In this document: piece after piece, positions 1 to 25,249 of the stretch | How the letters are laid out: each line of letters begins with the position of its first letter | Numbering within the stretch: the stretch's first letter is position 1 | Source: Nemertoderma westbladi | Taxonomy: Eukaryota; Animalia; Xenacoelomorpha | DNA: 35,682 nucleotides | Direction: 5' to 3' | Assembly (NCBI GenBank): GCA_032718475.1 | Contig: JAUCBJ010008803.1 | Coordinates: forward strand, 1-35,682 | The notes under the pieces: generated by a model | What the model saw: only the letters and a program-made list of their open reading frames with translations | Database searches by the model: none | What the model was told of the DNA's origin: nothing | Program-made: the position numbers and the translations under genes

Positions 1-3000
1 CTCCTTGACCAGGATGATTCTCTATTTAGTTTTATTGTCTGTTCTCCTTGACCAGGATGATTCTCTATTTAGTTTTATTGTCTGTTCTCCTTGACCAGGA
101 TGATTCTCTATTTAGTTTTATTGTCTGTTCTCCTTGACCAGGATGATTCTCTATTTAGTTTTATTGTCTGTTCTCCTTGACCAGGATGATTCTCTATTTA
201 GTTTTATTGTCTGTTCTCCTTGACCAGGATGATTCTCTATTTAGTTTTATTGTCTGTTCTCCTTGACCAGGATGCTTCTCTATTTAGTTTTATTTTCTGT
301 TTTCCTTGGCCAGGATGATTCTCTATTTAGTTTTATTGTCTGTTCTCAGGGCCAGGATGATTCTCTATTTAGTTTTATTGTCTGTTCTCAGGGCCAGGAT
401 GATTCTCTATTTAGTTTTATTGTCTGTTTTCCTTGGCCAGGATGATTCTCTATTTAGTTTTATTGTCTGTTCTCAGGGCCAGGATGATTCTCTATTTAGT
501 TTTATTGTCTGTTCTCCTTTACCAGGAAGATTCTCTATTTAGTTTTATTGTCTGTTCTCCTTGACCAGGATGATTCTCTATTTAGTTTTATTGTCTGTTC
601 TCCTTGACCAGGATGATTCTCTATTTAGTTTTATTGTCTGTTCTCAGGGCCAGGATGATTCTCTATTTAGTTTTATTGTCTGTTCTCAGGGCCAGGATGA
701 TTCTCTATTTAGTTTTATTGTCTGTTCTCAGGGCCAGGATGATTCTCTATTTAGTTTTATTGTCTGTTCTCCTTGACCAGGATGATTCTCTATTTAGTTT
801 TATTGTCTGTTCTCCTTGACCAGGATGATTCTCTATTTAGTTTTATTGTCTGTTCTCCTTGACCAGGATGATTCTCTATTTAGTTTTATTGTCTGTTCTC
901 CTTGGCCAGGATGATTCTCTATTTAGTTTTATTGTCTGTTCTCCTTGACCAGGATGATTCTCTATTTAGTTTTATTGTCTGTTCTCAGGGCCAGGATGAT
1001 TCTCTATTTAGTTTTATTGTCTGTTCTCCTTGACCAGGATGATTCTCTATTTAGTTTTATTGTCTGTTCTCCTTGGCCAGGATGATTCTCTATTTAGTTT
1101 TATTGTCTGTTCTCCTTGACCAGGATGATTCTCTATTTAGTTTTATTGTCTGTTCTCAGGGCCAGGATGATTCTCTATTTAGTTTTATTGTCTGTTCTCC
1201 TTGACCAGGATGATTCTCTATTTAGTTTGATTGTCAGTTCTCAGGACCAGGATGATTCTCTATTTAGTTTTATTGTCTGTTCTCCTTGACCAGGATGATT
1301 CTCTATTTAGTTTTATTGTCTGTTCTCAGGGCCAGGATGATTCTCTATTTAGTTTTATTGTCTGTTCTCCTTGACCAGGATGATTCTCTATTTAGTTTTA
1401 TTGTCTGTTCTCCTTGACCAGGATGATTCTCTATTTAGTTTTATTGTCTGTTCTCCTTGACCAGGATGATTCTCTATTTAGTTTTATTGTCTGTTCTCCT
1501 TGACCAGGATGATTCTCTATTTAGTTTTATTGTCTGTTCTCCTTGACCAGGATGATTCTCTATTTAGTTTTATTGTCTGTTCTCCTTGACCAGGATGATT
1601 CTCTATTTAGTTTTATTGTCTGTACTCCTTGACCAGGATGATTCTCTATTTAGTTTTATTGTCTGTTCTCCTTTACCAGGATGATTCTCTATTTAGTTTT
1701 GTTGTCTGTTCTCCTTGACCAGGATGATTCTCTATTTAGTTTTATTGTCTGTTCTCCTTGACCAGGATGATTCTCTATTTAGTTTTATTGTCTGTTCTCA
1801 GGGCCAGGATGATTCTCTATTTCGTTTTATTGTCTGTTCTCCTTGGCCAGGATGATTCTCTATTTAGTTTTATTGTCTGTTCTCCTTGACCAGAATGATT
1901 CTCTATTTAGTTTTATTGTCTGTTCTCCTTGACCAGGATGATTCTCTATTTAGTTTTATTGTCTGTTCTCCTTGGCCAGGATGATTCTCTATTTAGTTTT
2001 ATTGTCTGTTCTCCTTGACCAGGATGATTCTCTATTTAGTTTTATTGTCTGTTCTCCTTGACCAGGATGATTCTCTATTTAGTTTTATTGTCTGTTCTCC
2101 TTGACCAGGATGATTCTCTATTTAGTTTTATTGTCTGTTCTCCTTGACCAGGATGATTCTCTATTTAGTTTTATTGTCTGTTCTCCTTGACCAGGATGAT
2201 TCTCTATTTAGTTTTATTGTCTGTTCTCCTTGACCAGGATGATTCTCTATTTAGTTTTATTGTCTGTTCTCCTTGACCAGGATGATTCTCTATTTAGTTT
2301 TATTGTCTGTTCTCCTTGACCAGGATGATTCTCTATTTAGTTTTATTGTCTGTTCTCCTTTACCAGGATGATTCTCTATTTAGTTTTATTGTCTGTTCTC
2401 AGGACCAGGATGATTCTCTATTTAGTTTTATTGTCTGTTCTCAGGGCCAGGATGATTCTCTATTTAGTTTTATTGTCTGTTCTCCTTGGCCAGGATGATT
2501 CTCTATTTAGTTTTATTGTCTGTTCTCCTTGACCAGGATGATTCTCTATTTAGTTTTATTGTCTGTTCTCCTTGACCAGGATGATTCTCTATTTAGTTTT
2601 ATTGTCTGTTCTCCTTGACCAGGATGATTCTCTATTTAGTTTTATTGTCTGTTCTCCTTGACCAGGATGATTCTCTATTTAGTTTTATTGTCTGTTCTCC
2701 TTGACCAGGATGATTCTCTATTTAGTTTTATTGTCTGTTCTCCTTGACCAGGATGATTCTCTATTTAGTTTTATTGTCTGTTCTCCTTGACCAGGATGAT
2801 TCTCTATTTAGTTTTATTGTCTGTTCTCCTTGACCAGGATGATTCTCTATTTAGTTTTATTGTCTGTTCTCCTTGACCAGGATGATTCTCTATTTAGTTT
2901 TATTGTCTGTTCTCCTTGACCAGGATGATTCTCTATTTAGTTTTATTGTCTGTTCTCCTTGACCAGGATGATTCTCTATTTAGTTTTATTGTCTGTTCTC

Positions 3001-6000
3001 CTTGACCAGGATGATTCTCTATTTAGTTTTATTGTCTGTTCTCCTTGACCAGGATGATTCTCTATTTAGTTTTATTGTCTGTTCTCCTTGACCAGGATGC
3101 TTCTCTATTTAGTTTTATTGTCTGTTTTCCTTGGCCAGGATGATTCTCTATTTAGTTTTATTGTCTGTTCTCAGGGCCAGGATGATTCTCTATTTAGTTT
3201 TATTGTCTGTTCTCAGGGCCAGGATGATTCTCTATTTAGTTTTATTGTCTGTTTTCCTTGGCCAGGATGATTCTCTATTTAGTTTTATTGTCTGTTCTCA
3301 GGGCCAGGATGATTCTCTATTTAGTTTTATTGTCTGTTCTCCTTGGCCAGGATGATTCTCTATTTAGTTTTATTGTCTGTTCTCCTTGGCCAGGAGGATT
3401 CTCTATTTAGTTTTATTGTCTGTTCTCAGGGCCAGGATGATTCTCTATTTAGTTTTATTGTCTGTTCTCCTTGACCAGGATGATTCTCTATTTAGTTTTA
3501 TTGTCTGTTCTCCTTGACCAGGATGATTCTCTATTTAGTTTTATTGTCTGTTCTCAGGGCCAGGATGATTCTCTATTTAGTTTTATTGTCTGTTCTCCTT
3601 GACCAGGCCAGGATGATTCTCTATTTAGTTTTATTGTCTGTTCTCAGGACCAGGATGATTCTCTATTTAGTTTTATTGTCTGTTCTCCTTGACCAGGATG
3701 ATTCTCTATTTAGTTTTATTGTCTGTTCTCAGGACCAGGATGATTCTCTATTTAGTTTTATTGTCTGTTCTCCTTGACCAGGATGATTCTCTATTTAGTT
3801 TTATTGTCTGTTCTCCTTGACCAGGATGATTCTCTATTTAGTTTTATTGTCTGTTCTCCTTGACCAGGATGATTCTCTATTTAGTTTTATTGTCTGTTCT
3901 CCTTGACCAGGAAGATTCTCTATTTAGTTTTATTGTCTGTTCTCCTTGACCAGGATGATTCTCTATTTAGTTTTATTGTCTGTTCTCCTTGACCAGGATG
4001 ATTCTCTATTTAGTTTTATTGTCTGTTCTCAGGGCCAGGATGATTCTCTATTTAGTTTTATTGTCTGTTCTCCTTGACCAGGATGATTCTCTATTTAGTT
4101 TTATTGTCTGTTCTCCTTTACCAGGATGATTCTCTATTTAGTTTTATTGTCTGTTCTCCTTGGCCAGGATGATTCTCTATTTAGTTTTATTGTCTGTTCT
4201 CAGGACCAGGATGATTCTCTATTTAGTTTTATTGTCTGTTCTCCTTGACCAGGATGATTCTCTATTTAGTTTGATTGTCTGTTCTCCTTTACCAGGATGA
4301 TTCTCTATTTAGTTTTATTGTCTGTTCTCCTTTACCAGGATGATTCTCTATTTAGTTTTATTGTCTGTTCTCAGGACCAGGATGATTCTCTATTTAGTTT
4401 TATTGTCTGTTCTCCTTTACCAGGATGATTCTCTATTTAGTTTTATTGTCTGTTCTCCTTTACCAGGATGATTCTCTATTTAGTTTTATTGTCTGTTCTC
4501 CTTGACCAGGATGATTCTCTATTTAGTTTGATTGTCTGTTCTCCTTTACCAGGATGATTCTCTATTTAGTTTTATTGTCTGTTCTCAGGACCAGGATGAT
4601 TCTCTATTTAGTTTTATTGTCTGTTCTCCTTTACCAGGATGATTCTCTATTTAGTTTTATTGTTTGTTCTCAGGACCAGGATGATTCTCTATTTAGTTTT
4701 ATTGTCTGTTCTCCTTTACCAGGATGATTCTCTATTTAGTTTTATTGTCTGTTCTCAGGGCCAGGATGATTCTCAATTTAGTTTTATTGTCTGTTCTCCT
4801 TGGCCAGGATGATTCTCTATTTAGTTTTATTGTCTGTTCTCCTTGACCAGGATGATTCTCTATTTAGTTTTATTGTCTGTTCTCCTTGACCAGGATGATT
4901 CTCTATTTAGTTTTATTGTCTGTTCTCAGGGCCAGGATGATTCTCTATTTAGTTGTATTGTCTGTTCTCCTTTACCAGGATGATTCTCTATTTAGTTTTA
5001 TTGTCTGTTCTCCTTGACCAGGATGATTCTCTATTTAGTTTTATTGTCTGTTCTCCTTGACCAGGATGATTCTCTATTTAGTTTTATTGTCTGTTCTCCT
5101 TTACCAGGATGATTCTCTATTTAGTTTTATTGTCTGTTCTCAGGGCCAGGATGATTCTCTATTTAGTTTTATTGTCTGTTCTCCTTGACCAGGATGATTC
5201 TCTATTTAGTTTTATTGTCTGTTCTCCTTGACCAGGATGATTCTCTATTTAGTTTTATTGTCTGTTCTCCTTGACCAGGATGATTCTCTATTTAGTTTTA
5301 TTGTCTGTTCTCCTTGACCAGGATGATTCTCTATTTAGTTTTATTGTCTGTTCTCCTTGACCAGGATGATTCTCTATTTAGTTTTATTGTCTGTTCTCCT
5401 TGACCAGGAAGATTCTCTATTTAGTTTTATTGTCTTTTCTCAGGGCCAGGATGATTCTCTATTTAGTTTTATTGTCTGTTCTCCTTGACCAGGATGATTC
5501 TCTATTTAGTTTTATTGTCTGTTCTCCTTGACCAGGATGATTCTCTATTTAGTTTTATTGTCTGTTCTCAGGACCAGGATGATTCTCTATTTAGTTTTAT
5601 TGTCTGTTCTCCTTGACCAGGATGATTCTCTATTTAGTTTTATTGTCTGTTCTCAGGGCCAGGATGATTCTCTATTTAGTTTTATTGTCTGTTCTCCTTT
5701 ACCAGGATGATTCTCTATTTAGTTTTATTGTCTGTTCTCCTTGACCAGGATGATTCTCTATTTAGTTTTATTGTCTGTTCTCCTTGACCAGGATGATTCT
5801 CTATTTAGTTTTATTGTCTTTTCTCAGGGCCAGGATGATTCTCTATTTAGTTTTATTGTCTGTTCTCCTTGACCAGGATGATTCTCTATTTAGTTTTATT
5901 GTCTGTTCTCCTTGACCAGGATGATTCTCTATTTAGTTTTATTGTCTGTTCTCAGGACCAGGATGATTCTCTATTTAGTTTTATTGTCTGTTCTCCTTGA

Positions 6001-9000
6001 CCAGGATGATTCTCTATTTAGTTTTATTGTCTGTTCTCAGGGCCAGGATGATTCTCTATTTAGTTTTATTGTCTGTTCTCCTTTACCAGGATGATTCTCT
6101 ATTTAGTTTTATTGTCTGTTCTCCTTGACCAGGATGATTCTCTATTTAGTTTTATTGTCTGTTCTCCTTGACCAGGATGATTCTCTATTTAGTTTTATTG
6201 TCTGTTCTCCTTGACCAGGATGATTCTCTATTTAGTTTTATTGTCTGTTCTCCTTGACCAGGATGATTCTCTATCTAGTTTTATTGTCTGTTCTCCTTGA
6301 CCAGGATGATTCTCTATTTAGTTTTATTGTCTGTTCTCCTTGACCAGGATGATTCTCTATTTAGTTTTATTGTCTGTTCTCCTTGACCAGGATGATTCTC
6401 TATTTAGTTTTATTGTCTGTTCTCCTTGACCAGGATGATTCTCTATTTAGTTTTATTGTCTGTTCTCCTTGACCAGGATGATTCTCTATTTAGTTTTATT
6501 GTCTGTTCTCCTTGACCAGGATGATTCTCTATTTAGTTTTATTGTCTGTTCTCCTTGACCAGGATGCTTCTCTATTTAGTTTTATTGTCTGTTCTCCTTG
6601 GCCAGGATGATTCTCTATTTAGTTTTATTGTCTGTTCTCAGGGCCAGGATGATTCTCTATTTAGTTTTATTGTCTGTTCTCAGGGCCAGGATGATTCTCT
6701 ATTTAGTTTTATTGTCTGTTTTCCTTGGCCAGGATGATTCTCTATTTAGTTTTATTGTCTGTTCTCGGGGCCAGGATGATTCTCTATTTAGTTTTATTGT
6801 CTGTTCTCCTTGGCCAGGATGATTCTCTATTTAGTTTTATTGTCTGTTCTCCTTGGCCAGGATGATTCTCTATTTAGTTTTATTGTCTGTTCTCAGGGCC
6901 AGGATGATTCTCTATTTAGTTTTATTGTCTGTTCTCCTTGACCAGGATGATTCTCTATTTAGTTTTATTGTCTGTTCTCCTTGACCAGGATGATTCTCTA
7001 TTTAGTTTTATTGTCTGTTCTCAGGGCCAGGATGATTCTCTATTTAGTTTTATTGTCTGTTCTCCTTGACCAGGCCAGGATGATTCTCTATTTAGTTTTA
7101 TTGTCTGTTCTCCTTGACCAGGATGATTCTCTATTTAGTTTTATTGTCTGTTCTCAGGACCAGGATGATTCTCTATTTAGTTTTATTGTCTGTTCTCCTT
7201 GACCAGGATGATTCTCTATTTAGTTTTATTGTCTGTTCTCCTTGACCAGGATGATTCTCTATTTAGTTTTATTGTCTGTTCTCAGGACCAGGATGATTCT
7301 CTATTTAGTTTTATTGTCTGTTCTCCTTGACCAGGATGATTCTCTATTTAGTTTTATTGTCTGTTCTCCTTGACCAGGATGATTCTCTATTTAGTTTTAT
7401 TGTCTGTTCTCCTTGACCAGGATGATTCTCTATTTAGTTTTATTGTCTGTTCTCAGGACCAGGATGATTTTCTATTTAGTTTTATTGTCTGTTCTCCTTG
7501 ACCAGGATGATTCTCTATTTAGTTTGATTGTCTGTTCTCCTTTACCAGGATGATTCTCTATTTAGTTTTATTGTCTGTTCTCCTTTACCAGGATGATTCT
7601 CTATTTAGTTTCATTGTCTGTTCTCAGGACCAGGATGATTCTCTATTTAGTTTTATTGTCTGTTCTCCTTTACCAGGATGATTCTCTATTTAGTTTTATT
7701 GTCTGTTCTCCTTTACCAGGATGATTCTCTATTTAGTTTTATTGTCTGTTCTCCTTGACCAGGATGATTCTCTATTTAGTTTGATTGTCTGTTCTCCTTT
7801 ACCAGGATGATTCTCTATTTAGTTTTATTGTCTGTTCTCCTTTACCAGGATGATTCTCTATTTAGTTTTATTGTCTGTTCTCCTTTACCAGGATGATTCT
7901 CTATTTAGTTTTATTGTCTGTTCTCAGGACCAGGATGATTCTCTATTTAGTTTTATTGTCTGTTCTCCTTTACCAGGATGATTCTCTATTTAGTTTTATT
8001 GTCTGTTCTCCTTTACCAGGATGATTCTCTATTTAGTTTTATTGTCTGTTCTCAGGACCAGGATGATTCTCTATTTAGTTTTATTGTCTGTTCTCCTTTA
8101 CCAGGATGATTCTCTATTTAGTTTTATTGTCTGTTCTCCTTTACCAGGATGATTCTCTATTTAGTTTTATTGTCTGTTCTCAGGACCAGGATGATTCTCT
8201 ATTTAGTTTTATTGTCTGTTCTCCTTTACCAGGATGATTCTCTATTTAGTTTTATTGTCTGTTCTCCTTTACCAGGATGATTCTCTATTTAGTTTTATTG
8301 TCTGTTCTCAGGACCAGGATGATTCTCTATTTAGTTTTATTGTCTGTTCTCCTTTACCAGGATGATTCTCTATTTAGTTTTATTGTTTGTTCTCAGGACC
8401 AGGATGATTCTCTATTTAGTTTTATTGTCTGTTCTCCTTTACCAGGATGATTCTCTATTTAGTTTTATTGTCTGTTCTCAGGGCCAGGATGATTCTCAAT
8501 TTAGTTTTATTGTCTGTTCTCCTTGGCCAGGATGATTCTCTATTTAGTTTTATTGTCTGTTCTCCTTGACCAGGATGATTCTCTATTTAGTTTTATTGTC
8601 TGTTCTCCTTGACCAGGATGATTCTCTATTTAGTTTTATTGTCTGTTCTCAGGGCCAGGATGATTCTCTATTTAGTTTTATTGTCTGTTCTCCTTTACCA
8701 GGATGATTCTCTATTTAGTTTTATTGTCTGTTCTCCTTGACCAGGATGATTCTCTATTTAGTTTTATTGTCTGTTCTCCTTGACCAGGATGATTCTCTAT
8801 TTAGTTTTATTGTCTGTTCTCCTTTACCAGGATGATTCTCTATTTAGTTTTATTGTCTGTTCTCAGGGCCAGGATGATTCTCTATTTAGTTTTATTATCT
8901 GTTCTCCTTGACCAGGATGAGTCTCTATTTAGTTTTATTGTCTGTTCTCCTTGACCAGGATGATTCTCTATTTAGTTTTATTGTCTGTTCTCCTTGACCA

Positions 9001-12000
9001 GGATGATTCTCTATTTAGTTTTATTGTCTGTTCTCCTTGACCAGGATGATTCTCTATTTAGTTTTATTGTCTGTTCTCCTTGACCAGGAAGATTCTCTAT
9101 TTAGTTTTATTGTCTTTTCTCAGGGCCAGGATGATTCTCTATTTAGTTTTATTGTCTGTTCTCCTTGACCAGGATGATTCTCTATTTAGTTTTATTGTCT
9201 GTTCTCCTTGACCAGGATGATTCTCTATTTAGTTTTATTGTCTGTTCTCAGGACCAGGATGATTCTCTATTTAGTTTTATTGTCTGTTCTCCTTGACCAG
9301 GATGATTCTCTATTTAGTTTTATTGTCTGTTCTCAGGGCCAGGATGATTCTCTATTTAGTTTTATTGTCTGTTCTCCTTTACCAGGATGATTCTCTATTT
9401 AGTTTTATTGTCTGTTCTGCTTGACCAGGATGATTCTCTATTTAGTTTTATTGTCTGTTCTCCTTGACCAGGATGATTCTCTATTTAGTTTTATTGTCTG
9501 TTCTCCTTGACCAGGATGATTCTCTATTTAGTTTTATTGTCTGTTCTCCTTGACCAGGATGATTCTCTATCTAGTTTTATTGTCTGTTCTCCTTGACCAG
9601 GATGATTCTCTATTTAGTTTTATTGTCTGTTCTCCTTGACCAGGATGATTCTCTATTTAGTTTTATTGTCTGTTCTCCTTGACCAGGATGATTCTCTATT
9701 TAGTTTTATTGTCTGTTCTCCTTGACCAGGATGATTCTCTATTTAGTTTTATTGTCTGTTCTCCTTGACCAGGAAGATTCTCTATTTAGTTTTATTGTCT
9801 GTTCTCAGGGCCAGGATGATTCTCTATTTAGTTTTATTGTCTGTTCTCCTTGACCAGGATGATTCTCTATTTAGTTTTATTATCTGTTCTCCTTGGCCAG
9901 GATGATTCTCTATTTAGTTTTATTGTCTGTTCTCAGGGCCAGGATGATTCTCTATTTAGTTTTATTGTCTGTTCTCCTTGGCCAGGATGATTCTCTATTT
10001 AGTTTTATTGTCTGTTCTCCTTGGCCAGGATGATTCTCTATTTAGTTTTATTGTCTGTTCTCAGGGCCAGGATAATTCTCTATTTAGTTTTATTGTCTGT
10101 TCTCCTTGACCAGGATGATTCTCTATTTAGTTTTATTGTCTGTTCTCCTTGACCAGGATGATTCTCTATTTAGTTTTATTGTCTGTTCTCAGGGCCAGGA
10201 TGATTCTCTATTTAGTTTTATTGTCTGTTCTCCTTGACCAGGATGATTCTCTATTTAGTTTTATTGTCTGTTCTCAGGACCAGGATGATTCTCTATTTAA
10301 TTTTATTGTCTGTTCTCCTTGACCAGGATGATTCTCTATTTAGTTTTATTGTCTGTTCTCAGGACCAGGATGATTCTCTATTTAGTTTTATTGTCTGTTC
10401 TCCTTGACCAGGATGATTCTCTATTTAGTTTTATTGTCTGTTCTCCTTGACCAGGATGATTCTCTATTTAGTTTTATTGTCTGTTCTCCTTGACCAGGAT
10501 GATTCTCTATTTAGTTTTATTGTCTGTTCTCCTTGACCAGAAAGATTCTCTATTTAGTTTTATTGTCTGTTCTCCTTGACCAGGATGATTCTCTATTTAG
10601 TTTTATTGTCTGTTCTCCTTGACCAGAATGATTCTCTATTTAGTTTTATTGTCTGTTCTCAGGGCCAGGATGATTCTCTATTTAGTTTTATTGTCTGTTC
10701 TCCTTGACCAGGATGATTCTCTATTTAGTTTTATTGTCTGTTCTCCTTTACCAGGATGATTCTCTATTTAGTTTTATTGTCTGTTCTCCTTGGCCAGGAT
10801 GATTCTCTATTTAGTTTTATTGTCTGTTCTCAGGACCAGGATGATTCTCTATTTAGTTTTATTGTCTGTTCTCCTTGACCAGGATGATTCTCTATTTAGT
10901 TTGATTGTCTGTTCTCCTTTACCAGGATGATTCTCTATTTAGTTTTATTGTCTGTTCTCCTTTACCAGGATGATTCTCTATTTAGTTTTATTGTCTGTTC
11001 TCAGGACCAGGATGATTCTCTATTTAGTTTTATTGTCTGTTCTCCTTTACCAGGATGATTCTCTATTTAGTTTTATTGTCTGTTCTCAGGGCCAGGATGA
11101 TTCTCTATTTAGTTTTATTGTCTGTTCTCCTTGACCAGGATGATTCTCTATTTAGTTTTATTGTCTGTTCTCCTTGACCAGGATGATTCTCTATTTAGTT
11201 TTATTGTCTGTTCTCCTTGACCAGGATGATTCTCTATTTAGTTTTATTGTCTGTTCTCCTTGACCAGGATGATTCTCTATTTAGTTTTATTGTCTGTTCT
11301 CCTTGACCAGGATGATTCTCTATTTAGTTTTATTGTCTGTTCTCCTTGACCAGGAAGATTCTCTATTTAGTTTTATTGTCTTTTCTCAGGGCCAGGATGA
11401 TTCTCTATTTAGTTTTATTGTCTGTTCTCCTTGACCAGGATGATTCTCTATTTAGTTTTATTGTCTGTTCTCCTTGACCAGGATGATTCTCTATTTAGTT
11501 TTATTGTCTGTTCTCAGGGCCAGGATGATTCTCTATTTAGTTTTATTGTCTGTTCTCCTTTACCAGGATGATTCTCTATTTAGTTTTATTGTCTGTTCTC
11601 CTTGACCAGGATGATTCTCTATTTAGTTTTATTGTCTGTTCTCCTTGACCAGGATGATTCTCTATTTAGTTTTATTGTCTGTTCTCCTTGACCAGGATGA
11701 TTCTCTATTTAGTTTTATTGTCTGTTCTCCTTGACCAGGATGATTCTCTATCTAGTTTTATTGTCTGTTCTCCTTGACCAGGATGATTCTCTATTTAGTT
11801 TTATTGTCTGTTCTCCTTGACCAGGATGATTCTCTATTTAGTTTTATTGTCTGTTCTCCTTGACCAGGATGATTCTCTATTTAGTTTTATTGTCTGTTCT
11901 CCTTGACCAGGATGATTCTCTATTTAGTTTTATTGTCTGTTCTCCTTGACCAGGATGATTCTCTATTTAGTTTTATTGTCTGTTCTCCTTGACCAGGATG

Positions 12001-14941
12001 ATTCTCTATTTAGTTTTATTGTCTGTTCTCCTTGACCAGGATGATTCTCTATTTAGTTTTATTGTCTGTTCTCCTTGACCAGGATGCTTCTCTATTTAGT
12101 TTTATTGTCTGTTTTCCTTGGCCAGGATGATTCTCTATTTAGTTTTATTGTCTGTTCTCAGGGCCAGGATGATTCTCTATTTAGTTTTATTGTCTGTTCT
12201 CAGGGCCAGGATGATTCTCTATTTAGTTTTATTGTCTGTTTTCCTTGGCCAGGATGATTCTCTATTTAGTTTTATTGTCTGTTCTCAGGGCCAGGATGAT
12301 TCTCTATTTAGTTTTATTGTATGATCTCCTTGGCCAGGATGATTCTCTATTTAGTTTTATTGTCTGTTCTCCTTGGCCAGGATGATTCTCTATTTAGTTT
12401 TATTGTCTGTTCTCAGGGCCAGGATGATTCTCTATTTAGTTTTATTGTCTGTTCTCCTTGACCAGGATGATTCTCTATTTAGTTTTATTGTCTGTTCTCC
12501 TTGACCAGGATGATTCTCTATTTAGTTTTATTGTCTGTTCTCAGGGCCAGGATGATTCTCTATTTAGTTTTATTGTCTGTTCTCCTTGACCAGGCCAGGA
12601 TGATTCTCTATTTAGTTTTATTGTCTGTTCTCAGGACCAGGATGATTCTCTATTTAGTTTTATTGTCTGTTCTCCTTGACCAGGATGATTCTCTATTTAG
12701 TTTTATTGTCTGTTCTCAGGACCAGGATGATTCTCTATTTAGTTTTATTGTCTGTTCTCCTTGACCAGGATGATTCTCTATTTAGTTTTATTGTCTGTTC
12801 TCCTTGACCAGGATGATTCTCTATTTAGTTTTATTGTCTGTTCTCAGGACCAGGATGATTCTCTATTTAGTTTTATTGTCTGTTCTCAGGGCCAGGATGA
12901 TTCTCTATTTAGTTTTATTGTCTGTTCTCAGGACCAGGATGATTCTCTATTTAGTTTTATTGTCTGTTCTCCTTGACCAGGATGATTCTCTATTTAGTTT
13001 TATTGTCTGTTCTCCTTTACCAGGATGATTCTCTATTTAGTTTTATTGTCTGTTCTCAGGACCAGGATGATTCTCTATTTAGTTTTATTGTCTGCTCTCA
13101 GGGCCAGGATGATTCTCTATTTAGTTTTATTGTCTGTTCTCAGGACCAGGATGATTCTCTATTTAGTTTTATTGTCTGTTCTCCTTTACCAGGATGATTC
13201 TCTATTTAGTTTGATTGTCTGTTCTCCTTTACCAGGATGATTCTCTATTTAGTTTTATTGTCTGTTCTCCTTTACCAGGATGATTCTCTATTTAGTTTTA
13301 TTGTCTGTTCTCAGGACCAGGATGATTCTCTATTTAGTTTTATTGTCTGTTCTCTTTGACCAGGATGATTCTCTATTTAGTTTTATTGTCTGTTCTCAGG
13401 ACCAGGATGATTCTCTATTTAGTTTTATTGTCTGTTCTCCTTTACCAGGATGATTCTCTATTTAGTTTTATTGTCTGTTCTCAGGACCAGGATGATTCTC
13501 TATTTAGTTTTATTGTCTGTTCTCAGGGCCAGGATGATTCTCAATTTAGTTTTATTGTCTGTTCTCCTTGGCCAGGATGATTCTCTATTTAGTTTTATTG
13601 TCTGTTCTCCTTGACCAGGATGATTCTCTATTTAGTTTTATTGTCTGTTCTCCTTGACCAGGATGATTCTCTATTTAGTTTTATTGTCTGTTCTCAGGAC
13701 CAGGATGATTCTCTATTTAGTTTTATTGTCTGTTCTCCTTTACCAGGATGATTCTCTATTTAGTTTTATTGTCTGTTCTCCTTTACCAGGATGATTCTCT
13801 ATTTAGTTTTATTGTCTGTTCTCAGGACCAGGATGATTCTCTATTTAGTTTTATTGTCTGTTCTCCTTTACCAGGATGATTCTCTATTTAGTTTTATTGT
13901 CTGTTCTCCTTTACCAGGATGATTCTCTATTTAGTTTTATTGTCTGTTCTCAGGACCAGGATGATTCTCTATTTAGTTTTATTGTCTGTTCTCCTTTACC
14001 AGGATGATTCTCTATTTAGTTTTATTGTCTGTTCTCAGGACCAGGATGATTCTCTATTTAGTTTTATTGTCTGTTCTCCTTTACCAGGATGATTCTCTAT
14101 TTAGTTTTATTGTCTGTTCTCAGGACCAGGATGATTCTCTATTTAGTTTTATTGTCTGTTCTCAGGGCCAGGATGATTCTCAATTTAGTTTTATTGTCTG
14201 TTCTCCTTGGCCAGGATGATTCTCTATTTAGTTTTATTGTCTGTTCTCCTTGACCAGGATGATTCTCTATTTAGTTTTATTGTCTGTTCTCCTTGACCAG
14301 GATGATTCTCTATTTAGTTTTATTGTCTGTTCTCAGGGCCAGGATGATTCTCTATTTAGTTTTATTGTCTGTTCTCCTTTACCAGGATGATTCTCTATTT
14401 AGTTTTATTGTCTGTTCTCCTTGACCAGGATGATTCTCTATTTAGTTTTATTGTCTGTTCTCCTTGACCAGGATGATTCTCTATTTAGTTTTATTGTCTG
14501 TTCTCCTTGGCCAGGATGATTCTCTATTTAGTTTTATTGTCTGTTCTCCTTGACCAGGATGATTCTCTATTTAGTTTTATTGTCTGTTCTCCTTTACCAG
14601 GATGATTCTCTATTTAGTTTTATTGTCTGTTCTCAGGGCCAGGATGATTCTCTATTTAGTTTTATTGTCTGTTCTCCTTGACCAGGATGATTCTCTATTT
14701 AGTTTTATTGTCTGTTCTCCTTGACCAGGATGATTCTCTATTTAGTTTTATTGTCTGTTCTCAGGGCCAGGATGATTCTCTATTTAGTTTTATTGTCTGT
14801 TCTCCTTGACCAGGATGATTCTCTATTTAGTTTTATTGTCTGTTCTCCTTGACCAGGATGATTCTCTAATTAGTTTTATTGTCTGTTCTCCTTTACCAGG
14901 ATGATTCTCTATTTAGTTTTATTGTCTGTTCTCAGGGCCAG
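1..14941 (+). repeat. Intronic 42/43-bp tandem array (~350 units, runs off the left edge); unit equals the 3' splice site region of the downstream exon
   Basis: Consensus CTCCTTGACCAGGATGATTCTCTATTTAGTTTTATTGTCTGTT (43 bp). Variants differ almost only at one spot: CTCCTTGACC, CTCCTTTACC, CTCCTTGGCC (43 bp) and CTCAGGGCC, CTCAGGACC (42 bp). The last unit reads TGTTCTCAG|GGCCAGGACGAC directly into coding sequence. Confidence 0.98.
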
Positions 14942-15139
14942 GACGACACCGGTAGATTCAGTTGGAACCGTGGCGCCGTTCTCATATTTCTCCCCGGGAT
15001 CCATGAGATCGAGTTTATGAATGAGTTGCTAACTGATATCAGATCCATCTACAAACTCTGGGTACTCCGATTGCATTCTTCCTTGCCGATAGACGAACAA
15101 CGTAAAGTGTTCCGTAAGCCGGATATTGGAAAGAGAAAG
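14936..15139 (+). CDS. TDRD9: Internal exon A of TDRD9/spindle-E DExH-box RNA helicase (RecA2 domain, motif IV region)
   Basis: Translates GQDDTGRFSWNRGAVLIFLPGIHEIEFMNELL...LRLHSSLPIDEQRKVFRKPDIGKRK, with the LIFLPG and LHSS motifs of DEAH/RHA helicases. Acceptor TTCTCAG| at 14935, donor AAG|GTTTGT at 15140, 204 nt, phase 0-0. In-frame alternative acceptors at 14899 and 14941 make the start slightly uncertain. Confidence 0.9.
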
Positions 15140-15365: not shown

Positions 15366-16437
15366 ATGCCATCGCTAGCTGATAAATTCTCGGAAGTACA
15401 TGCCCTCACAGTCACTTCAATAAGGAATGTTAAATCGAAGAAAAGTATGTCTGTCGAGGACGAGAAAAATCTGTTAGAATCAATCGAAGAACTCAACACT
15501 TTTGGCATCCCTTAGCGATCTCGCTGAATCGAGAGAATAAACTATTGAGAGTAAAAACACTGTAATACAGGTTAAAGATGAACTCTTGGGACTAACACGG
15601 CAGGGAAAAGAGGATTTAGGACGCGGATCGTGAACCTGGGATTACTGGATGTTCTACTCGAGGTAGACAGGATAAGCAGGCTGGGAGGACTGCTTCACGC
15701 AACTTAACCCAACAGCGACGAGGTTGTTCCGGTTCCGCAAACTGGGAGGACTGCTTCACGCAACTTAACCCAACAGCGACGAGGTTGTTCCGGTTCCGCA
15801 AACTGGGAGGACTGCTTCACGCAACTTAACCCAACAGCGACGAGGTTGTTCCGGTTCCGCAAACTCAAGGGAACAGTCGGTGGACTCCCTCCTAGCTCCA
15901 AGATATCCTCCTACCAGTACCCATGCAGGCTACCATGCAGATCATCGAGAGGATGCAGAAACTCCGGCATTGCAGGATGGTCTCAGTAAGGGAAACGAGT
16001 GGAAAACGGTTCCGGAACGGCGGAAGCCACAGCGCTCAACTGCAACGGTTGTTATAAGAATAGGAACTGGCCTTGTTGTCGCCCCAAGGACAGATCGCGT
16101 ACAACTGGCGCATATTTACGTTGGCCGCTTCGCAAAAAATGTCACATCAAATGACGTTAAAGATTATCTCACAACGGAAAAACTTCCGTTTACTGATGTC
16201 ATCCGCATCAATAGCGAACACGACTCTGAATCACATGCTTTCCATATCACCTGCCTGCAAGATGATCGTGAGAAACTGATAGATCCCAACAACTTGGAAG
16301 ATGGGTTACTCATCCAGAACTACCTTCTATCTGAACAGGAACGTACAGCTCTAGGGTTGAAACCAAGATTCCGGAATGGATCAGACTTGGGAAACAGACC
16401 AAACCCTACCAGACCCAACATCCAAGATAATAATTGA
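15366..16437 (+). pseudogene. LINE ORF1 (disrupted N-terminal part; open C-terminal 15880-16437 with RRM-like domain)
   Basis: ATG at 15366 opens MPSLADKFSEVHAL...EDEKNLLESIEELN (coiled-coil-like), then the frame breaks. C-terminal HIYVGRFAKNVTSNDVKDYL...AFHIT...KLIDP resembles RRM-like LINE ORF1 domains. It lies directly upstream of the APE domain. Confidence 0.6.
15681..15863 (+). repeat. Three perfect 61-bp tandem copies within the LINE ORF1 region
   Basis: CTGGGAGGACTGCTTCACGCAACTTAACCCAACAGCGACGAGGTTGTTCCGGTTCCGCAAA at 15681, 15742 and 15803. Confidence 0.95.
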
Positions 16438-18541: not shown

Positions 18542-19362
18542 TTCTACCTGTCAGACAGAGGTCGAACTGTAGTCATTAGCAAATCGCAGTCTACTGTACA
18601 AGAGATTACCTGTGGTGTACCGCAAGGTAGTATATTAGGTCCTCTGCTTTTTGTATGCTATGTAAATGATATGATAAGTAGTATAGATCCCGATTTTAAA
18701 CTCATTTTATATGCCGACGACAGTGCTCTTATTTTCTCTCATAAAGATCCTATCCATATTTCCCAAAAGTTAAGTGCAGTTCTAGAATCCTGTAATGAGT
18801 GGTTGGTTGATAATAAGCTATCCATTCACTACGGTAAGACTGAAAGTATTTTGTTTGGTTCCAAAAGAAAGTTAAAGAAGGTAACTAAGTTTGAAGTCAC
18901 TAGTAATGGACATAAGATTGAAAATAAAAAGGAAGTTAAATATTTAGGCGCCACATTGGATAACTGCTTATCAGGAGAAAGTACAGTGAAAAATATTTTC
19001 TCGAAAGTTAACAGTAGGCTTAGGTTTCTATACAGAAATGAAAATAGTTTAAACACCGACTCCCGCAAGTTACTTTGCTCTTCTTTAATACAGTGTCACA
19101 TGGACTATGCATGCCCTTCTTGGTATGAAGGCTTAACCAAACAGCTTAAATGTAAATTACAAGTAGCTCAGAATAAAGTAGTACGATTTATTAAAGACTA
19201 CAAACCTAGGCACCACCTAACTCCAGATGACTTTTCTGAATCTGGACTACTTAACTTAGATAGTAGAGTTAAGCAGCTACGACTTAACCATGTGCATAAA
19301 GTGTATAATGGTAAATGTCCCAATTACTAAAACAAAAATTCAACAGAGTTCGCGATACACAC
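18542..19362 (+). mobile_element. Nested fragment of a second LINE family (CR1/L2-group-like RT C-terminal half)
   Basis: A second, non-identical set of RT motifs: ITCGVPQGSILGPLLFVCYVND, LYADDS, NKLSIHYGKT, KYLGATLD, LIQCHMDYACPSW, KLQVAQNKVVRFI. These repeat motifs already present in the host at about 18280-18410. Confidence 0.88.
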
Positions 19363-20288
<926 letters not shown>

Positions 20289-20320: not shown

Positions 20321-20815
20321 AAGATAAATAAAACGATATGTTAGCCAGTTTTCATTTATTATCTATACCTATAAAAATCAAATTCTGTCTGTCTCTCTCT
20401 GTGTTCGAACTCCTCCAAAAACGGGCGGAGGGATTGTGCTGGGACTTGACATGTGTGTATAACTTTAACCAGCGGTCGTTATAGGCCACTTTTCGAAAAG
20501 TATAATTCACTTTCGGTACCGGTACTGGGTACCGGTACGTCAGTAGGCCTATGCCGGTAGCGGGAAATACAGGGTATCATGCCTCGGGTATTGCCTGCTA
20601 GTATTATATAAAAAATGGTTTAATTATGTTTATTAGATATTACAGATAAATAAATAATATATATATACAGTAAAAATAGTAAAAATACAGTAAAAAAGGT
20701 TTTTTACTGTATATATATATTATTTATTTATCTGTAATATCTAATAAACATAATTAAACCATTTTTATATAATATAATAAATGAAAACTGGCTAACATAT
20801 CGTTTTATTTATCTT
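20321..20815. repeat. AT-rich foldback inverted repeat (arms about 115 bp), left arm interrupted by a Helitron
   Basis: 20321-20361 plus 20602-20676 is the reverse complement of 20701-20815. The centre is TACAGTAAAAAA-GG-TTTTTTACTGTA at 20686-20711. Confidence 0.93.
20362..20601 (+). mobile_element. Non-autonomous Helitron (240 bp)
   Basis: Starts TCTATACCTATAAAA and ends CTAG, inserted between A and T with no target duplication. There is an imperfect GC-rich hairpin just before the 3' end. The other palindrome arm preserves the empty site CATTTATTA|TATTATATA. Confidence 0.85.
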
Positions 20816-21332
20816 TATTAATCTACAATACATTGTCAATTTCATATATTTTTAACATTGATTGATTTTTATCATGAATCTGAATATTATATTTATACTT
20901 TTAACATTTCCGACGGTTCGGTCTAATTTTAACAGGTATATAATTCACAAGTTACAGGGCGATCCATAGTCTTGGACACCCTGTGTATGTATGTGTTATA
21001 TTATTGTGCTATTATATTACTTATAATTAATTAATATAGTTTACCCCGATCTGGGGTGTTTATTCTAAAAAAAATGTAATTAAGATTGTATTATTATAGT
21101 CACAGTATTGAAACCATTTTTTTAAACTACCAGTACCTGTATTAGCATAATATAATTGTTACACTTCCAAGTTTCAGTTTAATGGCATTCCAATTCAAAC
21201 TGTTAGAAATACATCGCAAATATGAATTTGTAGTTATGGTTTTCATATCAGTATAGATAGTCCTGACCACTAAACTTATCCTAAAGAAACTGTTTATCTC
21301 GGTTGGTTTACGGCTATTTATCGTCTCTCTAG

Positions 21333-21532
21333 GTTATTATCTCCAGCAACGTGGCCGAGAGTTCCATCACAGTTGCCGACATCGTTTACGTTATCGATTT
21401 CTGTTTAACTAAAGAGATGAGTTGCGACCCCGAGACCAACTTCCAGTGTCTCAAACTGTCCTGGGCTAGTAAAGCGAACGCCACCCAGCGGAAGGGTAGG
21501 GCTGGTCGGGTCGCATGTGGCAAGGTTTATAG
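21333..21532 (+). CDS. TDRD9: Internal exon B of TDRD9/spindle-E (helicase motifs V and VI)
   Basis: Translates VIISSNVAESSITVADIVYVIDFCLTKEMSCDPETNFQCLKLSWASKANATQRKGRAGRVACGKVYR. AESSxTV, VIDFCLT and LSWASK are characteristic of TDRD9/Spn-E rather than other DHX proteins. Acceptor TCTCTCTAG| at 21332, donor TAG|GTAGGT at 21533, 200 nt, phase 0-2. Confidence 0.95.
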
Positions 21533-22777
21533 GTAGGTGTGTACGCCATCTAGCGGAAGGGTAGGGCTGGTTGGGTCGCATGTGGCAAGGTTTATAGGTA
21601 GGTGTGTACGCCATCTAGCGGAAGGGTAGGGCTGGTTGGGTCGCATGTGGCAAGGTTTATAGGTAGGTGTGTACGCCATCTAGCGGAAGGGTAGGGCTGG
21701 TCGGGTCGCATGTAGCAAGGTTTATAGGTAGGTGTGTACGCCATCTAGCGGAAGGGTAGGGCTGGTCGGGTCGCATGTGGCAAGGTTTATAGGTCGGTGT
21801 GTACACCATCTAGCGGTAGCAAGGTTTATAGGTAGGTGTGTACGCCATCTAGCGGTAGCAAGGTTTATAGGTAGGTGTGTACGCCATCTAGCGGTAGCAA
21901 GGTTTATAGGTAGGTGTGTACGCCATCTAGCGGTAGCAAGGTTTCTAGGTAGGTGTGTACGCCATCTAGCGGTAGCAAGGTTTCTAGGTAGGTGTGTACG
22001 CCATCTAGCGGTAGCAAGGTTTCTAGGTAGGTGTGTACGCCATCTAGCGGTGGAAAGGTTTATAGGTAGGTGTGTACGCCATCCAGCGGAAGGGTAGGGC
22101 TGGTCGGGTCGCATGTGGCAAGGTTTATAGGTAGGTGTGTTCGCCATCTAGCGGAAGGGTAGGGCTGGTAGGGTCGCATATGGCAAGGTTTATAGGTGGG
22201 TGTGTATGTACGCCATCTAGCGGTAGCAAAGTTTATAGGTAGGTGTCTACGCCATCTAGCGGTAGCAAGGTTTATAGGTAGGTGTATACGCCATCTAGCG
22301 GTAGCAAGGTGTAAAGGTAGGTGTGTACACCATCTAGCGGTAGCAAGGTTTATAGGTATGTGTGTACGCCATCTAGCGGTAGCAAGGTTTATAGGTAGGT
22401 GTGTACGCCATCTAGCGGTAGCAAGGTGTAAACGTAGGTGTGTACACCATCTAGCGGTAGCAAGGTTTATAGGTAGGTGTGTACGCCATCTAGCGGTAGC
22501 AATGTTTATAGGTAGGTGTGTACGCCATCTAGCGGTAGCAAGGTTTATAGGTGGGTGTGTGTGTACGCCATCTAGCGGTAGCAAGGTTTATAGGTATGTG
22601 TGTACGCCATCTAGCGGTAGCAAGGTTTATAGGTGGGTGTGTGTGTACGCCATCTAGCGGTAGCAAGGTTTATAGGTAGGTGTGTACGCCATCTGGCGGT
22701 AGCAAGGTTTATAGGTAGGTGTGTACGCCATCTGGCGGTAGCAAGGTTTATAGGTAGGTGTGTACGCCATCTAGCGG
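21478..22777 (+). repeat. 65-bp / 39-bp tandem array derived from the 3' end of exon B and its splice donor (~28 units)
   Basis: The 65-bp unit is the last 55 nt of the exon plus GTAGGTGTGT (five units from 21478, two more at about 22076-22210). The 39-bp unit ACGCCATCTAGCGGTAGCAAGGTTTATAGGTAGGTGTGT is an internal 26-bp deletion derivative. Confidence 0.97.
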
Positions 22778-22934
22778 ACTCTACGTTGCCTTTCGTACGT
22801 CAGAATCCGCTAACATAAACAAAAAACTATTTCATTGAAAATTTACTTCATTATTTTTGTGACGTGTTGTTTCAGGGGTTTGGGGTGTGGTGTGAAATCC
22901 GCGACAGTTTTACCACATAGGTTTATGATTTCAG

Positions 22935-23044
22935 GTTAGTGCCGCGACAGTTTTACCACGGAGTTTTATCAGAGTTTGCTACCCCAGAGATGCAGCGAGC
23001 TGCTTTGTCCAACGTTGTCCTGAAGACAAAGGAACTGGATATTG
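22935..23044 (+). CDS. TDRD9: Internal exon C of TDRD9/spindle-E (end of RecA2 into winged-helix/HA2 region)
   Basis: Not in the ORF track. AG from exon B plus G completes Arg, then LVPRQFYHGVLSEFATPEMQRAALSNVVLKTKELDI(G), matching the YRL...PEMxR..L...LKxKxLDxG pattern of the family. Acceptor ATTTCAG| at 22934, donor G|GTGAGT at 23045, 110 nt, phase 2-1. Confidence 0.92.
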
Positions 23045-23545
23045 GTGAGTTACGATATGTGGAGTGGTCCTAAGGGACTCGATATCGGTGAGTCTCTACA
23101 GGTACAAGCTCTCTACTGATGATAATCCACAACATGGCCTATGTCCACAGGGTCTTCAGTCCTGGTTCCCATGATCACAGTTGCTCGTGGAGCATTGTCT
23201 GATTTATGGCTCAGTAAGGTACTGGAAATACTGTGGGTGATATCGGTAGAGTTTCTTCATGCAAAACCTTTTCTGAGTTTATTTTTAACACATTCATACG
23301 CATTGCATCCACTTCGTCAGCCATTGCATTAAAAATATTTTCCTCTTATAGAAGGTCATTCTCATCGACAATCTGGATGTGCTCCAGTAAAGACTCTTTT
23401 AATTTTATGTAAGCCTCCTCAGCGCCAGCTTTAAGAGAATTAACTCAGAAAGTGAATGGGCTGTCTGCTCTTCAACTGCTTGATTTGTTAAAATATTAAT
23501 TAATTTATAGCAGTATTTCATTTTCCTTGTAACTTGACATTTAAA

Positions 23546-23626
23546 TGCACCATGGCGGCGTTGCACCATGGCGGCGTTGCACCATGGCGGCGTTGCACCA
23601 TGGCGGCGTTGCACCATGGCGGCGTT
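23546..23626. repeat. Five 16-bp GC-rich tandem copies
   Basis: GCACCATGGCGGCGTT at 23547, 23563, 23579, 23595 and 23611. Confidence 0.95.
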
Positions 23627-25249
23627 TTGCGGTACATATCTCCTCTGCTGACGACATTTTATAAATGTTTGGGCACAAATTTTTGAAAACAAAGGGGGAA
23701 TATCTGATTCCTATCCTCTTAAATATCGTAGACTGCACCTATACTGCAGTTGGTACCGGTTACCGTTCGACCTTGTACCGGTACTTTGTTTTTGTACCTG
23801 ACCCAAATCTATAGGCATATAGCCTACGAATGAAGTTAAATTCCGTAGCGAATTTAATTTACACTGCGGCTACACACTGCGGCTACACGCTGCGCCATGC
23901 TGTATTTGTGTCCTACCTCGGTATTTAACCAGGTATTGATTGCAGAAATAGAAAGGAACAATCAGGTTCCGCGTACCAGTCAGCAGTCAAGCAAATAATA
24001 ATAATCAGACAGCAGTCAACAGGCAGATGCAAAAGCGAGTATCTGAATCATATTACTCCAGTAGACGCTCAATAGAGCTCAAGGGAGGACCGTGAACTTG
24101 GGTCATCACGCAATTTTATTTTCTCAATGTCTTCCCTGATAATAATAATGTAAATAATATTCACCGGGTGCCAGTTGGGATACCTTGGGGAATTTTTTTT
24201 ACAGCATAAAATACAAGTACAAATTAGTCAACCTATTCCATAAATTACATTAAATTATAAACGTTTGTTATTGGAGTAATTAAATTAAGTGTTCTAGAAC
24301 AGAGATAAACATCTACGTATATCTGTATATGTTTAGATCTGAATTTACTGTAATTGCAGTATACTTAGCTATGATATGAAAGCTTTGATTACCCATATTT
24401 TGCAAATCTTTTAACGGTATGTGGGCCTACGCCTATGCTCTTTTGTTTTATTTATTGTTCACCGCCGTTTCGTTAACCGCTTCGTTTATATATTGCCTAC
24501 CGCCTCGTAATTTAACTTGGTTTACACACACACTTTATTGGTCATTAGTCTTATTTATTGAAATTGATATAGCTAGTATTTTTTATTAGTTTATTAGTTT
24601 TTTTTACTAGTATTTAAATGTGCCGCTGTGGCACATTTATTCATAAAATCAAAAAATAATATTACGTAACTTGTTTTGTATTTTACATAGCTAGTGTTTT
24701 TTATGGTTGGTAGCAGCTTTAGTTGTGTTGAATATGAATTTAGCTAAATTTAAATTTCTAAAATATTCCAGAATAATATACAAAAAGTGTAAATAAAATA
24801 TTTTGGTTTTTTAGTTAAATTTTTTTAGTGTTTTGATAAATTGAAGCTAGAATAAAAAATATTATAGAATGTTAACTATGTTCTAGAAAATAATATATAA
24901 AAATCAAAGAAGCTTTAGCTCGTGGAAAACAATTGGATGGGGGTTTCGACACGACGAACTAGTACCCTATTTACGTTTCAAAAGACGAAATATTTATCAT
25001 AATAGGACGATCGAAGGTGAAACATCCCAACATCATTTACTGTTATTTAATCGGCGCTAAATGATGGATGAGTCGTGTCTGTTTTGCAGAAAAACATCTG
25101 GAACACTAATCACTGGAGGACCTATTTGCCAGAAATTATTCGCAAGAACTTGTCAGAAATTACAAGAGACCGAGCAATAGAGTCCACTAGCAAAAATCTA
25201 CTAAGTCTAATTTCCAAATTAGTTTCTGATGGAGAAGAAACCAAACAAT

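What the first reader, a model, noticed from the sequence alone, without database searches (positions are those of the whole stretch)
21478..22777. Amplified 5' splice site carrying copies of helicase motif VI, later trimmed to a 39-bp unit that keeps the donor
Seen: the first unit is the exon end (encoding ATQRKGRAGRVACGKVYR) plus GTAGGTGTGT. Intronic copies mostly change ACCCAG to ATCTAG, and the 39-bp derivative drops exon sequence yet keeps TTTATAG|GTAGGT. Some donors are altered (GTCGGT, GTGGGT, GTATGT). Reading past the first donor hits TAG at 21534, so use of any downstream donor truncates the protein just after motif VI. Each unit contains a TAG|GT juxtaposition resembling a recursive splice site, though with a poor pyrimidine tract.
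Basis: partly seen in the sequence, partly recalled or inferred. Interest (0 to 1): 0.75.

Follow-up and report, generated by a model that had tools for sequence, protein, structure and literature searches.

The report
Repeated splice donor in TDRD9 intron
In an animal's TDRD9/spindle-E-like helicase gene, the end of one exon and its splice signal are repeated 27 times in the next intron; the cell likely uses only the first signal, which would make this an ordinary example of a repeat type already known from human and lancelet genes.

Summary
21478-22778 is a minisatellite of 28 units plus a 15-bp remnant. Unit 1 is the real end of a TDRD9/spindle-E-like exon (helicase motif VI) plus 10 intronic bases. 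All 27 intronic copies keep the GT and 19 keep the exact donor 9-mer. Only the first donor gives an open frame, gap-free against 85 of 85 homologs; all 48 downstream GT sites tested stop at 21534.

The functional hints do not hold up. A random 26-bp deletion spares the donor 48% of the time. Donor columns vary like the rest (p=0.56). The stop follows from a phase-2 GTAG donor. Only 3 of 47 YAGGT sites meet a minimal recursive-site motif.

This is a 'mirage' (boundary-spanning minisatellite), known from lancelet genes and human F7, 6-16 and CBS, where the first donor is used alone or with the next two. No RNA run was listed, so usage is untested.

One is an array of at least 346 copies (15 kb) of the previous exon's acceptor, and three have a 43-bp step. 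Interest is low to modest.

The parts
14936..15139 (+). Exon A of a TDRD9/spindle-E-like gene (204 nt, phase 0/0; an in-frame alternative acceptor lies 6 nt downstream)
   Evidence: tblastn E 1e-13
21333..21532 (+). Exon B (200 nt, phase 0/2), C-terminal part of Helicase_C including QRKGRAGR
   Evidence: PF00271 E 7.5e-7; best PDB hit Spindle-E 9nhs_G, E 1.4e-20
21478..21542 (+). Unit 1: last 55 nt of exon B, authentic donor (GT at 21533) and 10 intronic nt
   Evidence: junction gap-free in 85 of 85 full-length homologs
21543..21802 (+). Units 2-5: 65-bp intronic copies, each with a pseudo-donor
21803..22075 (+). Units 6-12: 39-bp derivative lacking a 26-bp G-rich exon segment
22076..22209 (+). 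Units 13-14: long units (65 and 69 bp) among the short ones
22210..22763 (+). Units 15-28: 39/43-bp units with locally shared variants
22764..22778 (+). 15-bp terminal remnant, 13/15 identical to the head of unit 1 and carrying the two differences fixed in the copies; candidate seed repeat (inferred)
22935..23044 (+). Exon C (110 nt, phase 2/1)
1..14947 (+). 43/42-bp array (346 units counted, runs off the window edge) whose unit is the acceptor of exon A plus the first exon bases: an acceptor mirage of the same gene
22899..22916 (+). Exact 18-bp copy of the start of exon C (22942-22959), 43 bp upstream, behind a decoy acceptor at 22875
23072..23093 (+). Degenerate copy (19/22) of the exon C end and donor, 43 bp downstream (GTGAGT at 23088)

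Best explanation
This is a minisatellite whose first unit is the real exon end and splice donor of a TDRD9/spindle-E-like gene; it likely arose by a chance tandem duplication across that boundary, and the 27 extra donors are likely tolerated passengers that are spliced out with the intron. Shown: the unit spans the boundary; only donor 1 gives an intact protein; the 39-bp unit is a 26-bp deletion derivative; neighbouring units share variants. Inferred steps: (1) birth by slippage or unequal crossing-over between a 15-bp stretch of the exon and a near-identical stretch 65 bp away in the intron, which would make 'ATCTAG' the intron's version rather than a mutation of the copies; (2) growth and turnover by ordinary minisatellite recombination in a region that is 76% tandem repeat; (3) the spliceosome picks the most upstream donor, as shown for human F7; (4) any leak to copy 2 or 3 meets the stop that a phase-2 GTAG donor supplies and would be cleared by nonsense-mediated decay, so the array costs little and persists.
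For: Junction through donor 1 is gap-free in 85 of 85 full-length homologs; 48 of 48 other GT sites give a stop. No sign of selection on the donor copies: 5 of 17 variant alleles in 9 of 39 columns, p=0.56; an invariant GT is expected by chance with P=0.41; a random deletion spares the donor in 48%. Copies are young and drifting: mean 3% from consensus, with shared variants in runs such as units 9-11 and 27-28. The long-unit consensus differs from the exon only at columns 7 and 9, both inside the 15-bp head that the terminal remnant repeats (P about 0.05), as the seed-repeat models summarised in PMC3389668 predict (passages). Other tandem arrays in the window start in sequence with no TDRD9 exon (61 bp x3, 16 bp x5, 47 bp x about 230). 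Precedents: F7 uses only the first donor and the copies are functional but silent; LMNB2 and PDGF use only the authentic donor (PMC1557585 introduction and discussion); lancelet mirages do not disturb splicing (PMC3087553 and PMC3902484 passages).
Against: No RNA evidence for this gene, so first-donor use rests on the reading frame and on analogy. In human 6-16 and CBS the two nearest pseudo-donors are used as well. The test of selection has little power (17 alleles). 4 of 6 boundaries in the window carry an adjacent copy against a 3.6-6.7% background, which pure chance does not readily explain; the background was imperfect (see full report). The seed-repeat birth is only weakly favoured over later truncation of a unit.
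Confidence: 0.8

Rival explanations
1. Leaky 'poison' donors: copies 2-3 (exon lengths 265 and 330 nt) would be used often enough that the array lowers or tunes the level of this helicase through nonsense-mediated decay, perhaps varying with copy number.
For: 19 of 27 copies have a donor identical to the authentic one; every use truncates after motif VI; 6-16 and CBS use the two nearest pseudo-donors; tandem repeats that alter splicing exist in humans (PMC10078293, listing and passages).
Against: F7, LMNB2 and PDGF use only the first donor. No sign of selection on the donor columns. The stop is a by-product of the phase-2 donor consensus. Copy number beyond the first few units should matter little under oriented scanning (inference).
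Confidence: 0.12
2. The TAG|GT junctions act as recursive splice sites, so the intron would be removed stepwise along the array.
For: 47 YAGGT pentamers in the intronic copies; a recursive cut at any TAG|GT would regenerate the same donor and give the normal mRNA; recursive splicing occurs in introns as short as 0.2 kb (PMC10156609 table passage).
Against: AG|GT is simply the donor consensus. Only 3 of 47 sites meet Y5+N0-4YAGGT, all at the +4 shifted site with an AG in the spacer. Pyrimidine share at -20..-5 is 0.38-0.44 in the 3 units scored against 0.50-0.75 at the 3 true acceptors, and an AG sits 8 nt upstream. No YTRAY in the array. The intron is only 1402 nt.
Confidence: 0.03
3. The array, or its length, is an assembly artefact.
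For: No genome or reads were available to check it; the window is 76% tandem repeat.
Against: Two unit lengths, a shared derived variant linking them, and runs of shared variants look like real turnover, not collapsed or stuttered reads; both flanks splice into a sound gene.
Confidence: 0.03
4. The spare donors are kept by selection as a backup against mutation of the authentic donor.
For: GT is intact in 27 of 27 copies; in F7 the second copy is activated when the first is mutated.
Against: Use of any spare includes the first donor's bases and, with the present sequence, a stop; the second copy adds 65 nt, a frameshift. GT invariance is expected by chance with P=0.41.
Confidence: 0.02

Closest known systems
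Human F7 intron 7 37-bp VNTR (Borensztajn et al. 2006, PMC1557585; read: abstract, introduction, discussion), with 6-16, CBS intron 13, LMNB2 and PDGF intron 4 as cited there
   Same: First monomer spans the exon-intron boundary, so the authentic donor is followed by identical pseudo-donors (4-8 in F7, 25 in 6-16, 15-20 monomers in CBS); 27 here.
   Different: Here the founding unit holds 55 exon bases with a conserved enzyme motif (F7: 4 exon bases), a shorter derived unit has taken over most of the array, and splicing is untested. In F7 usage was shown by experiment.
[quoted passage not shown]
   Same: Both 5' and 3' boundaries can be duplicated; many but not all copies keep splice signals; concerted evolution with edge units left out; PGBD5 has such repeats at two exons of one gene.
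   Different: Copy numbers in those passages are 2-7; here 28 units at the donor and at least 346 at the upstream acceptor. Length instability and normal mRNA were shown there and not here. The lineage of this animal was not determined.
Recursive splice sites (PMC10156609, passages read)
   Same: YAG|GT juxtaposition inside an intron.
   Different: The polypyrimidine tract is missing at the main TAG|GT of all 27 copies, there is no branch-point-like YTRAY, and the AG|GT is inherited from the donor consensus.
Intron gain by tandem duplication of an AG|GT proto-splice site (Rogers model, as described in PMC3087553 and PMC2812944 passages)
   Same: A tandem duplication containing AG|GT inside a gene.
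   Different: The unit already contains 10 intronic bases that do not match the start of exon C, and the acceptor lies 156 bp beyond the array, so the intron predates the array (inferred).

Membership tests
Boundary-spanning minisatellite ('mirage', F7-type VNTR) | Tandem repeat whose unit spans an exon-intron boundary | tested here: met
   Unit 1 = 55 exon nt + 10 intron nt; 28 units
Boundary-spanning minisatellite ('mirage', F7-type VNTR) | The edge unit is the authentic gene section and gives the intact protein | tested here: met
   Donor 1 junction gap-free in 85 of 85 homologs; 48 of 48 other GT sites stop
Boundary-spanning minisatellite ('mirage', F7-type VNTR) | Many but not all copies keep the splice signal | tested here: met
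   GT in 27 of 27, exact 9-mer in 19 of 27
Boundary-spanning minisatellite ('mirage', F7-type VNTR) | Concerted turnover: neighbours share variants, edge units differ | tested here: met
   Shared variants in units 9-11, 17/20, 18/24, 23/25, 27-28; unit 1 and the remnant differ from their neighbours
Boundary-spanning minisatellite ('mirage', F7-type VNTR) | mRNA uses the authentic site, alone or with the nearest copies | not testable with these tools
   No RNA run was listed, so no reads could be laid
Boundary-spanning minisatellite ('mirage', F7-type VNTR) | Copy number varies between alleles or cells | not testable with these tools
   One sequence only; no genome held
Recursive splice sites | YAG|GT juxtaposition | tested here: met
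   47 YAGGT in the intronic copies
Recursive splice sites | Polypyrimidine tract before the YAG (minimal motif Y5+N0-4YAGGT, PMC10156609) | tested here: not met
   3 of 47, none at the main TAG|GT, each with an AG in the spacer
Recursive splice sites | Branch-point-like sequence upstream (YTRAY, motif recalled) | tested here: not met
   No match in 21533-22790
Recursive splice sites | Recursive intermediates, lariats or saw-tooth coverage | not testable with these tools
   No RNA run listed
Intron gain by AG|GT duplication (Rogers model) | Donor and acceptor of the intron both come from copies of the duplicated unit | tested here: not met
   The acceptor at 22934 lies 156 bp past the array; the unit's intronic bases differ from the start of exon C
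TDRD9/Spindle-E (host gene) | DEAH-type helicase C-terminal domain closest to TDRD9/Spindle-E | tested here: met
   Best PDB hit Spindle-E, E 1.4e-20 against 4e-15 for DHX36; named hits are TDRD9/spindle-E or unnamed; 55-61% identity over the three exons in the four alignments shown
TDRD9/Spindle-E (host gene) | Tudor domain and a complete reading frame | not testable with these tools
   Only three exons lie in the window; no genome held

The most novel reading that the evidence does not exclude
Tandem duplications in this lineage are biased towards splice junctions and have a preferred step of about 43 bp. Four of six boundaries of this gene carry an adjacent copy, three of them at a 43-bp offset, and two have grown into arrays (27 extra donors; at least 346 acceptor units over 15 kb). 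Mirages would then come from a junction-linked mutational process, for example repair of breaks at sites where splicing and transcription meet, not from chance plus tolerance.
Probability: 0.15. Interest if true: 0.65.

Novelty: new member of a known kind. Interest (0 to 1): 0.24.

Why it matters
As found, it is one more natural case of a spliceosome choosing among many identical donors, a question already probed in human F7. The extra value lies in the gene as a whole: exon A sits behind 442 YAG|G candidates over 15 kb and exon B in front of 27 spare donors, a good test bed for exon definition against scanning. If the excess of duplications at splice boundaries and the 43-bp step held genome-wide, it would point to a mechanism for mirages, which PMC3087553 calls unclear. 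That the host is likely a piRNA-pathway helicase (function recalled, not tested) is suggestive, but nothing here links the array to that role.

Tried and rejected
Whole genome: none held, so no genome-wide count of boundary repeats. Sequencing runs for 20900-23400, kind rna: none was listed; this is no evidence on expression, and no reads could be laid. Earlier scan notes on this genome, by sequence and on TDRD9: nothing.

Orthologous introns: 80 metagenome loci were fetched. 42 of 80 could be parsed to the homologous Arg codon (33 lacked my motif pattern, 5 lacked the downstream pattern). None of the 42 shows an intron at this position: 4 have GT there but read on in frame, and on reading the printed translations the 7 my script flagged 'interrupted' also run on past that codon. 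None has a downstream copy (highest score 22). The comparison is therefore uninformative.

The 47-bp array (25250-35682) as a third mirage: it starts inside an open frame at 25072-25329 with no TDRD9 match, no Pfam hit and no homolog. Its minus strand has a donor-like CAG|GTTTGT per unit, but any source exon would lie beyond the window. Left undecided.

Selection on donor copies: not detected, low power. Recursive splicing, backup donors and intron gain: rejected above. G-quadruplex idea: the deleted 26-bp segment is G-rich (G4Hunter-type score 1.32 in unit 1, reached by 0.8% of non-array windows; 0.68 in the 39-mers); kept only as a lead, since the array went on expanding without it.

Literature: two searches for a genome-wide treatment of mirages found 0 papers and 1 listing not read (PMC12783039). 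The library lacks most subscription papers, and the Adh3 paper was not held. No supplements were read; those of PMC3087553 hold the mirage alignments and may bear on the comparison.

Full report
Setting. The window is 76% tandem repeat and holds three coding exons: A 14936-15139, B 21333-21532 and C 22935-23044. They splice at GT-AG sites into one open frame of 171 residues. Exon B hits Helicase_C, and its best solved-structure match is Spindle-E (E 1.4e-20; DHX36 4e-15). The named hits among the 120 homologs listed are TDRD9/spindle-E or unnamed proteins. Against the 85 of those 120 that are 1250-1650 residues long, the spliced peptide aligns without a gap within 6 residues of the B/C junction in 85 of 85 and of the A/B junction in 84 of 85. 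The host is a TDRD9/spindle-E-like animal gene. Its role in piRNA silencing is recalled, not tested, and the lineage was not determined.

The observation. The array runs 21478-22778: 28 full units and a 15-bp remnant. Unit 1 is the last 55 bases of exon B plus 10 intronic bases, with the authentic GT at 21533. Seven units are long (1-5, 13, 14) and 21 are short. The short unit lacks 26 exon bases, and 20 of 21 short units share a G>A variant with long unit 4, which fixes the direction long to short. GT is intact in 27 of 27 intronic copies and the donor 9-mer is exact in 19 of 27; ACCCAG reads ATCTAG in 24 of 27. All 48 downstream GT sites tested give a stop at 21534-21536.

Are the hints of function more than chance? 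Second, selection: of 17 distinct variant alleles in the 39 shared columns, 5 fall in the 9 donor columns (p=0.56), and an untouched GT has P=0.41. The test is weak but shows neither protection nor erosion. Third, the stop: in a phase-2 intron, GTAA, GTGA and GTAG all put a stop in the next codon, so it comes with the donor consensus. Fourth, recursion: AG|GT is the donor consensus itself (MAG|GURAGU, quoted). Of 47 YAGGT sites, 3 meet the minimal motif used in PMC10156609, all at the +4 shifted site of units 9-11 with an AG in the spacer. The 3 units scored have 0.38-0.44 pyrimidines at -20..-5 against 0.50-0.75 for the 3 true acceptors, and there is no YTRAY in the array.

How it likely arose (inferred). 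The consensus of the six intronic long units differs from the exon at only two columns, 7 and 9. The remnant after unit 28 matches the head of unit 1 at 13 of 15 bases and has the same two differences. The simplest reading is that the remnant is the original intron, a near-copy of an exon stretch 65 bases upstream, and that slippage or unequal crossing-over between the two made unit 2 as a chimera of intron head and exon body. An incomplete terminal unit and flanking direct repeats are the marks of the two birth models summarised in PMC3389668 (passages). The chance that both fixed differences fall in the 15-base head is about 0.05, so support is modest; truncation of a later unit is not excluded. 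The exon side looks unchanged: Gln in 74 of 74 homologs that matched the motif pattern (11 of 85 did not match), with Thr the commonest preceding residue (27 of 74). Later growth shows as runs of shared variants, at 3% mean distance from consensus.

How it likely behaves (inferred). In human F7 a 37-bp VNTR starts on the exon 7 boundary; the copies are functional donors but only the most upstream is used. LMNB2 and PDGF also use only the authentic site, while 6-16 (25 pseudo-sites) and CBS also use the two nearest copies (PMC1557585; abstract, introduction and discussion read). Lancelet mirages at 5' and 3' boundaries reportedly leave splicing normal (PMC3087553 and PMC3902484, passages). By analogy donor 1 dominates, and a small leak to copy 2 or 3 would carry a premature stop and be degraded. 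No RNA run was listed, so this was not tested. I put 0.8 on a tolerated passenger, 0.12 on a leak that matters, and the rest on recursion, artefact or backup.

The 43/42-bp array at 1-14947 (346 units counted, running off the window edge) is built from the acceptor of exon A and the first exon bases. It holds 442 YAG|G sites, 257 with five or more pyrimidines close upstream. Only the last three (14899, 14935, 14941) are in frame and stop-free through exon A, assuming phase 0. Exon C has an exact 18-bp copy of its start 43 bp upstream and a 19/22 copy of its end and donor 43 bp downstream; using either decoy site ends in a stop. So 4 of 6 boundaries carry an adjacent copy; the A donor and B acceptor do not (scores 19 and 14). 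The same test at 2076 intron positions gave 5.7-6.7%, or 3.6-4.7% at 1960 positions without the microsatellite and poly-C. That gives P about 2e-5 to 3e-4 for 4 of 6, and 5e-4 to 3e-3 for 3 of 5 when the index site is left out. Caveats: the thresholds (30 and 32) were set after seeing the scores; the three large arrays were left out of the background; much of the background is LINE-derived and likely younger than exon-flanking DNA; the positions overlap; and it is one gene chosen for having such an array. The three 43-bp offsets are a post hoc observation.

Comparison and novelty. The testable defining features of a boundary-spanning minisatellite are met; mRNA usage and length variation could not be tested. 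Recursive sites and AG|GT intron gain each fail a defining feature. Earlier notes of this scan list the same class in sea urchins, annelids, elephant shark and skate, including a 286-copy acceptor array. These are unchecked AI notes; they led me to the term 'mirage', whose source papers I then read in part. Two searches for a genome-wide account of mirages gave 0 papers and 1 unread listing; the library is incomplete, so this does not show that none exists. PMC2812944 (outline and passages) reports variable repeats at exon-intron boundaries in human paralogs. PMC10078293 (passages) added little.

Verdict. A real feature, correctly described, and a new member of a known kind, most likely neutral. 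Interest 0.24. The boldest reading left open is a junction-biased duplication process with a step near 43 bp (probability 0.15, interest 0.65 if true), which a genome-wide count would settle.

Noticed in passing
window 1-14947: At least 346 units (about 15 kb, cut by the window edge) of a 43/42-bp repeat made from the acceptor and first bases of exon A; 442 YAG|G candidates, only the last three in frame and stop-free. Larger and arguably more striking than the finding given.
   Followed up: partly
window 14899, 14935, 14941: Three in-frame acceptors for exon A (exon lengths 240, 204, 198 nt); using 14899 would add 12 residues without a stop.
   Followed up: partly
window 22876-22916 and 23072-23093: Two-copy duplications at both ends of exon C, each offset by exactly 43 bp, the same length as the main unit of the upstream array. 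Unexplained.
   Followed up: partly
window 25250-35682: 47-bp satellite (238 pieces when split at its anchor, running off the right edge) that starts inside an 85-codon open frame at 25072-25329 with no Pfam or homolog hit; each unit has a donor-like CAG|GTTTGT on the minus strand, so it could be a mirage of a gene outside the window.
   Followed up: partly
window 15769-20288: Broken LINE-like element(s) in the A/B intron on the + strand: endonuclease (PF03372) at 16438-16794 and two RVT_1 fragments at 17783-18223 and 18527-19330, the second followed by (TCTA)49 at 19363-19558; probably one insertion nested in another.
   Followed up: partly
window 15681-15865, 23546-23626, 23861-23894: Small perfect tandem repeats (61 bp x3, 16 bp x5, 13 bp x2.6) away from exons, showing a high local rate of tandem duplication.
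   Followed up: no
window 21487-21517: The exon segment lost in the 39-bp unit is G-rich with quadruplex-like potential (score 1.32, top 0.8% of non-array windows).
   Followed up: partly
window 20335-20366 and 20780-20811: An inverted-repeat-like pair read by eye, with an internal palindromic stretch near 20640-20760; possibly a small non-autonomous DNA element.
   Followed up: no
L011, L014, L018, L032, L033, L037, L039, L042, L044 (around the match): Helicase relatives with in-frame stops under the standard code, suggesting TAA/TAG-reassigned (ciliate-type) codes; several have the DFC motif seen in TDRD9.
   Followed up: no
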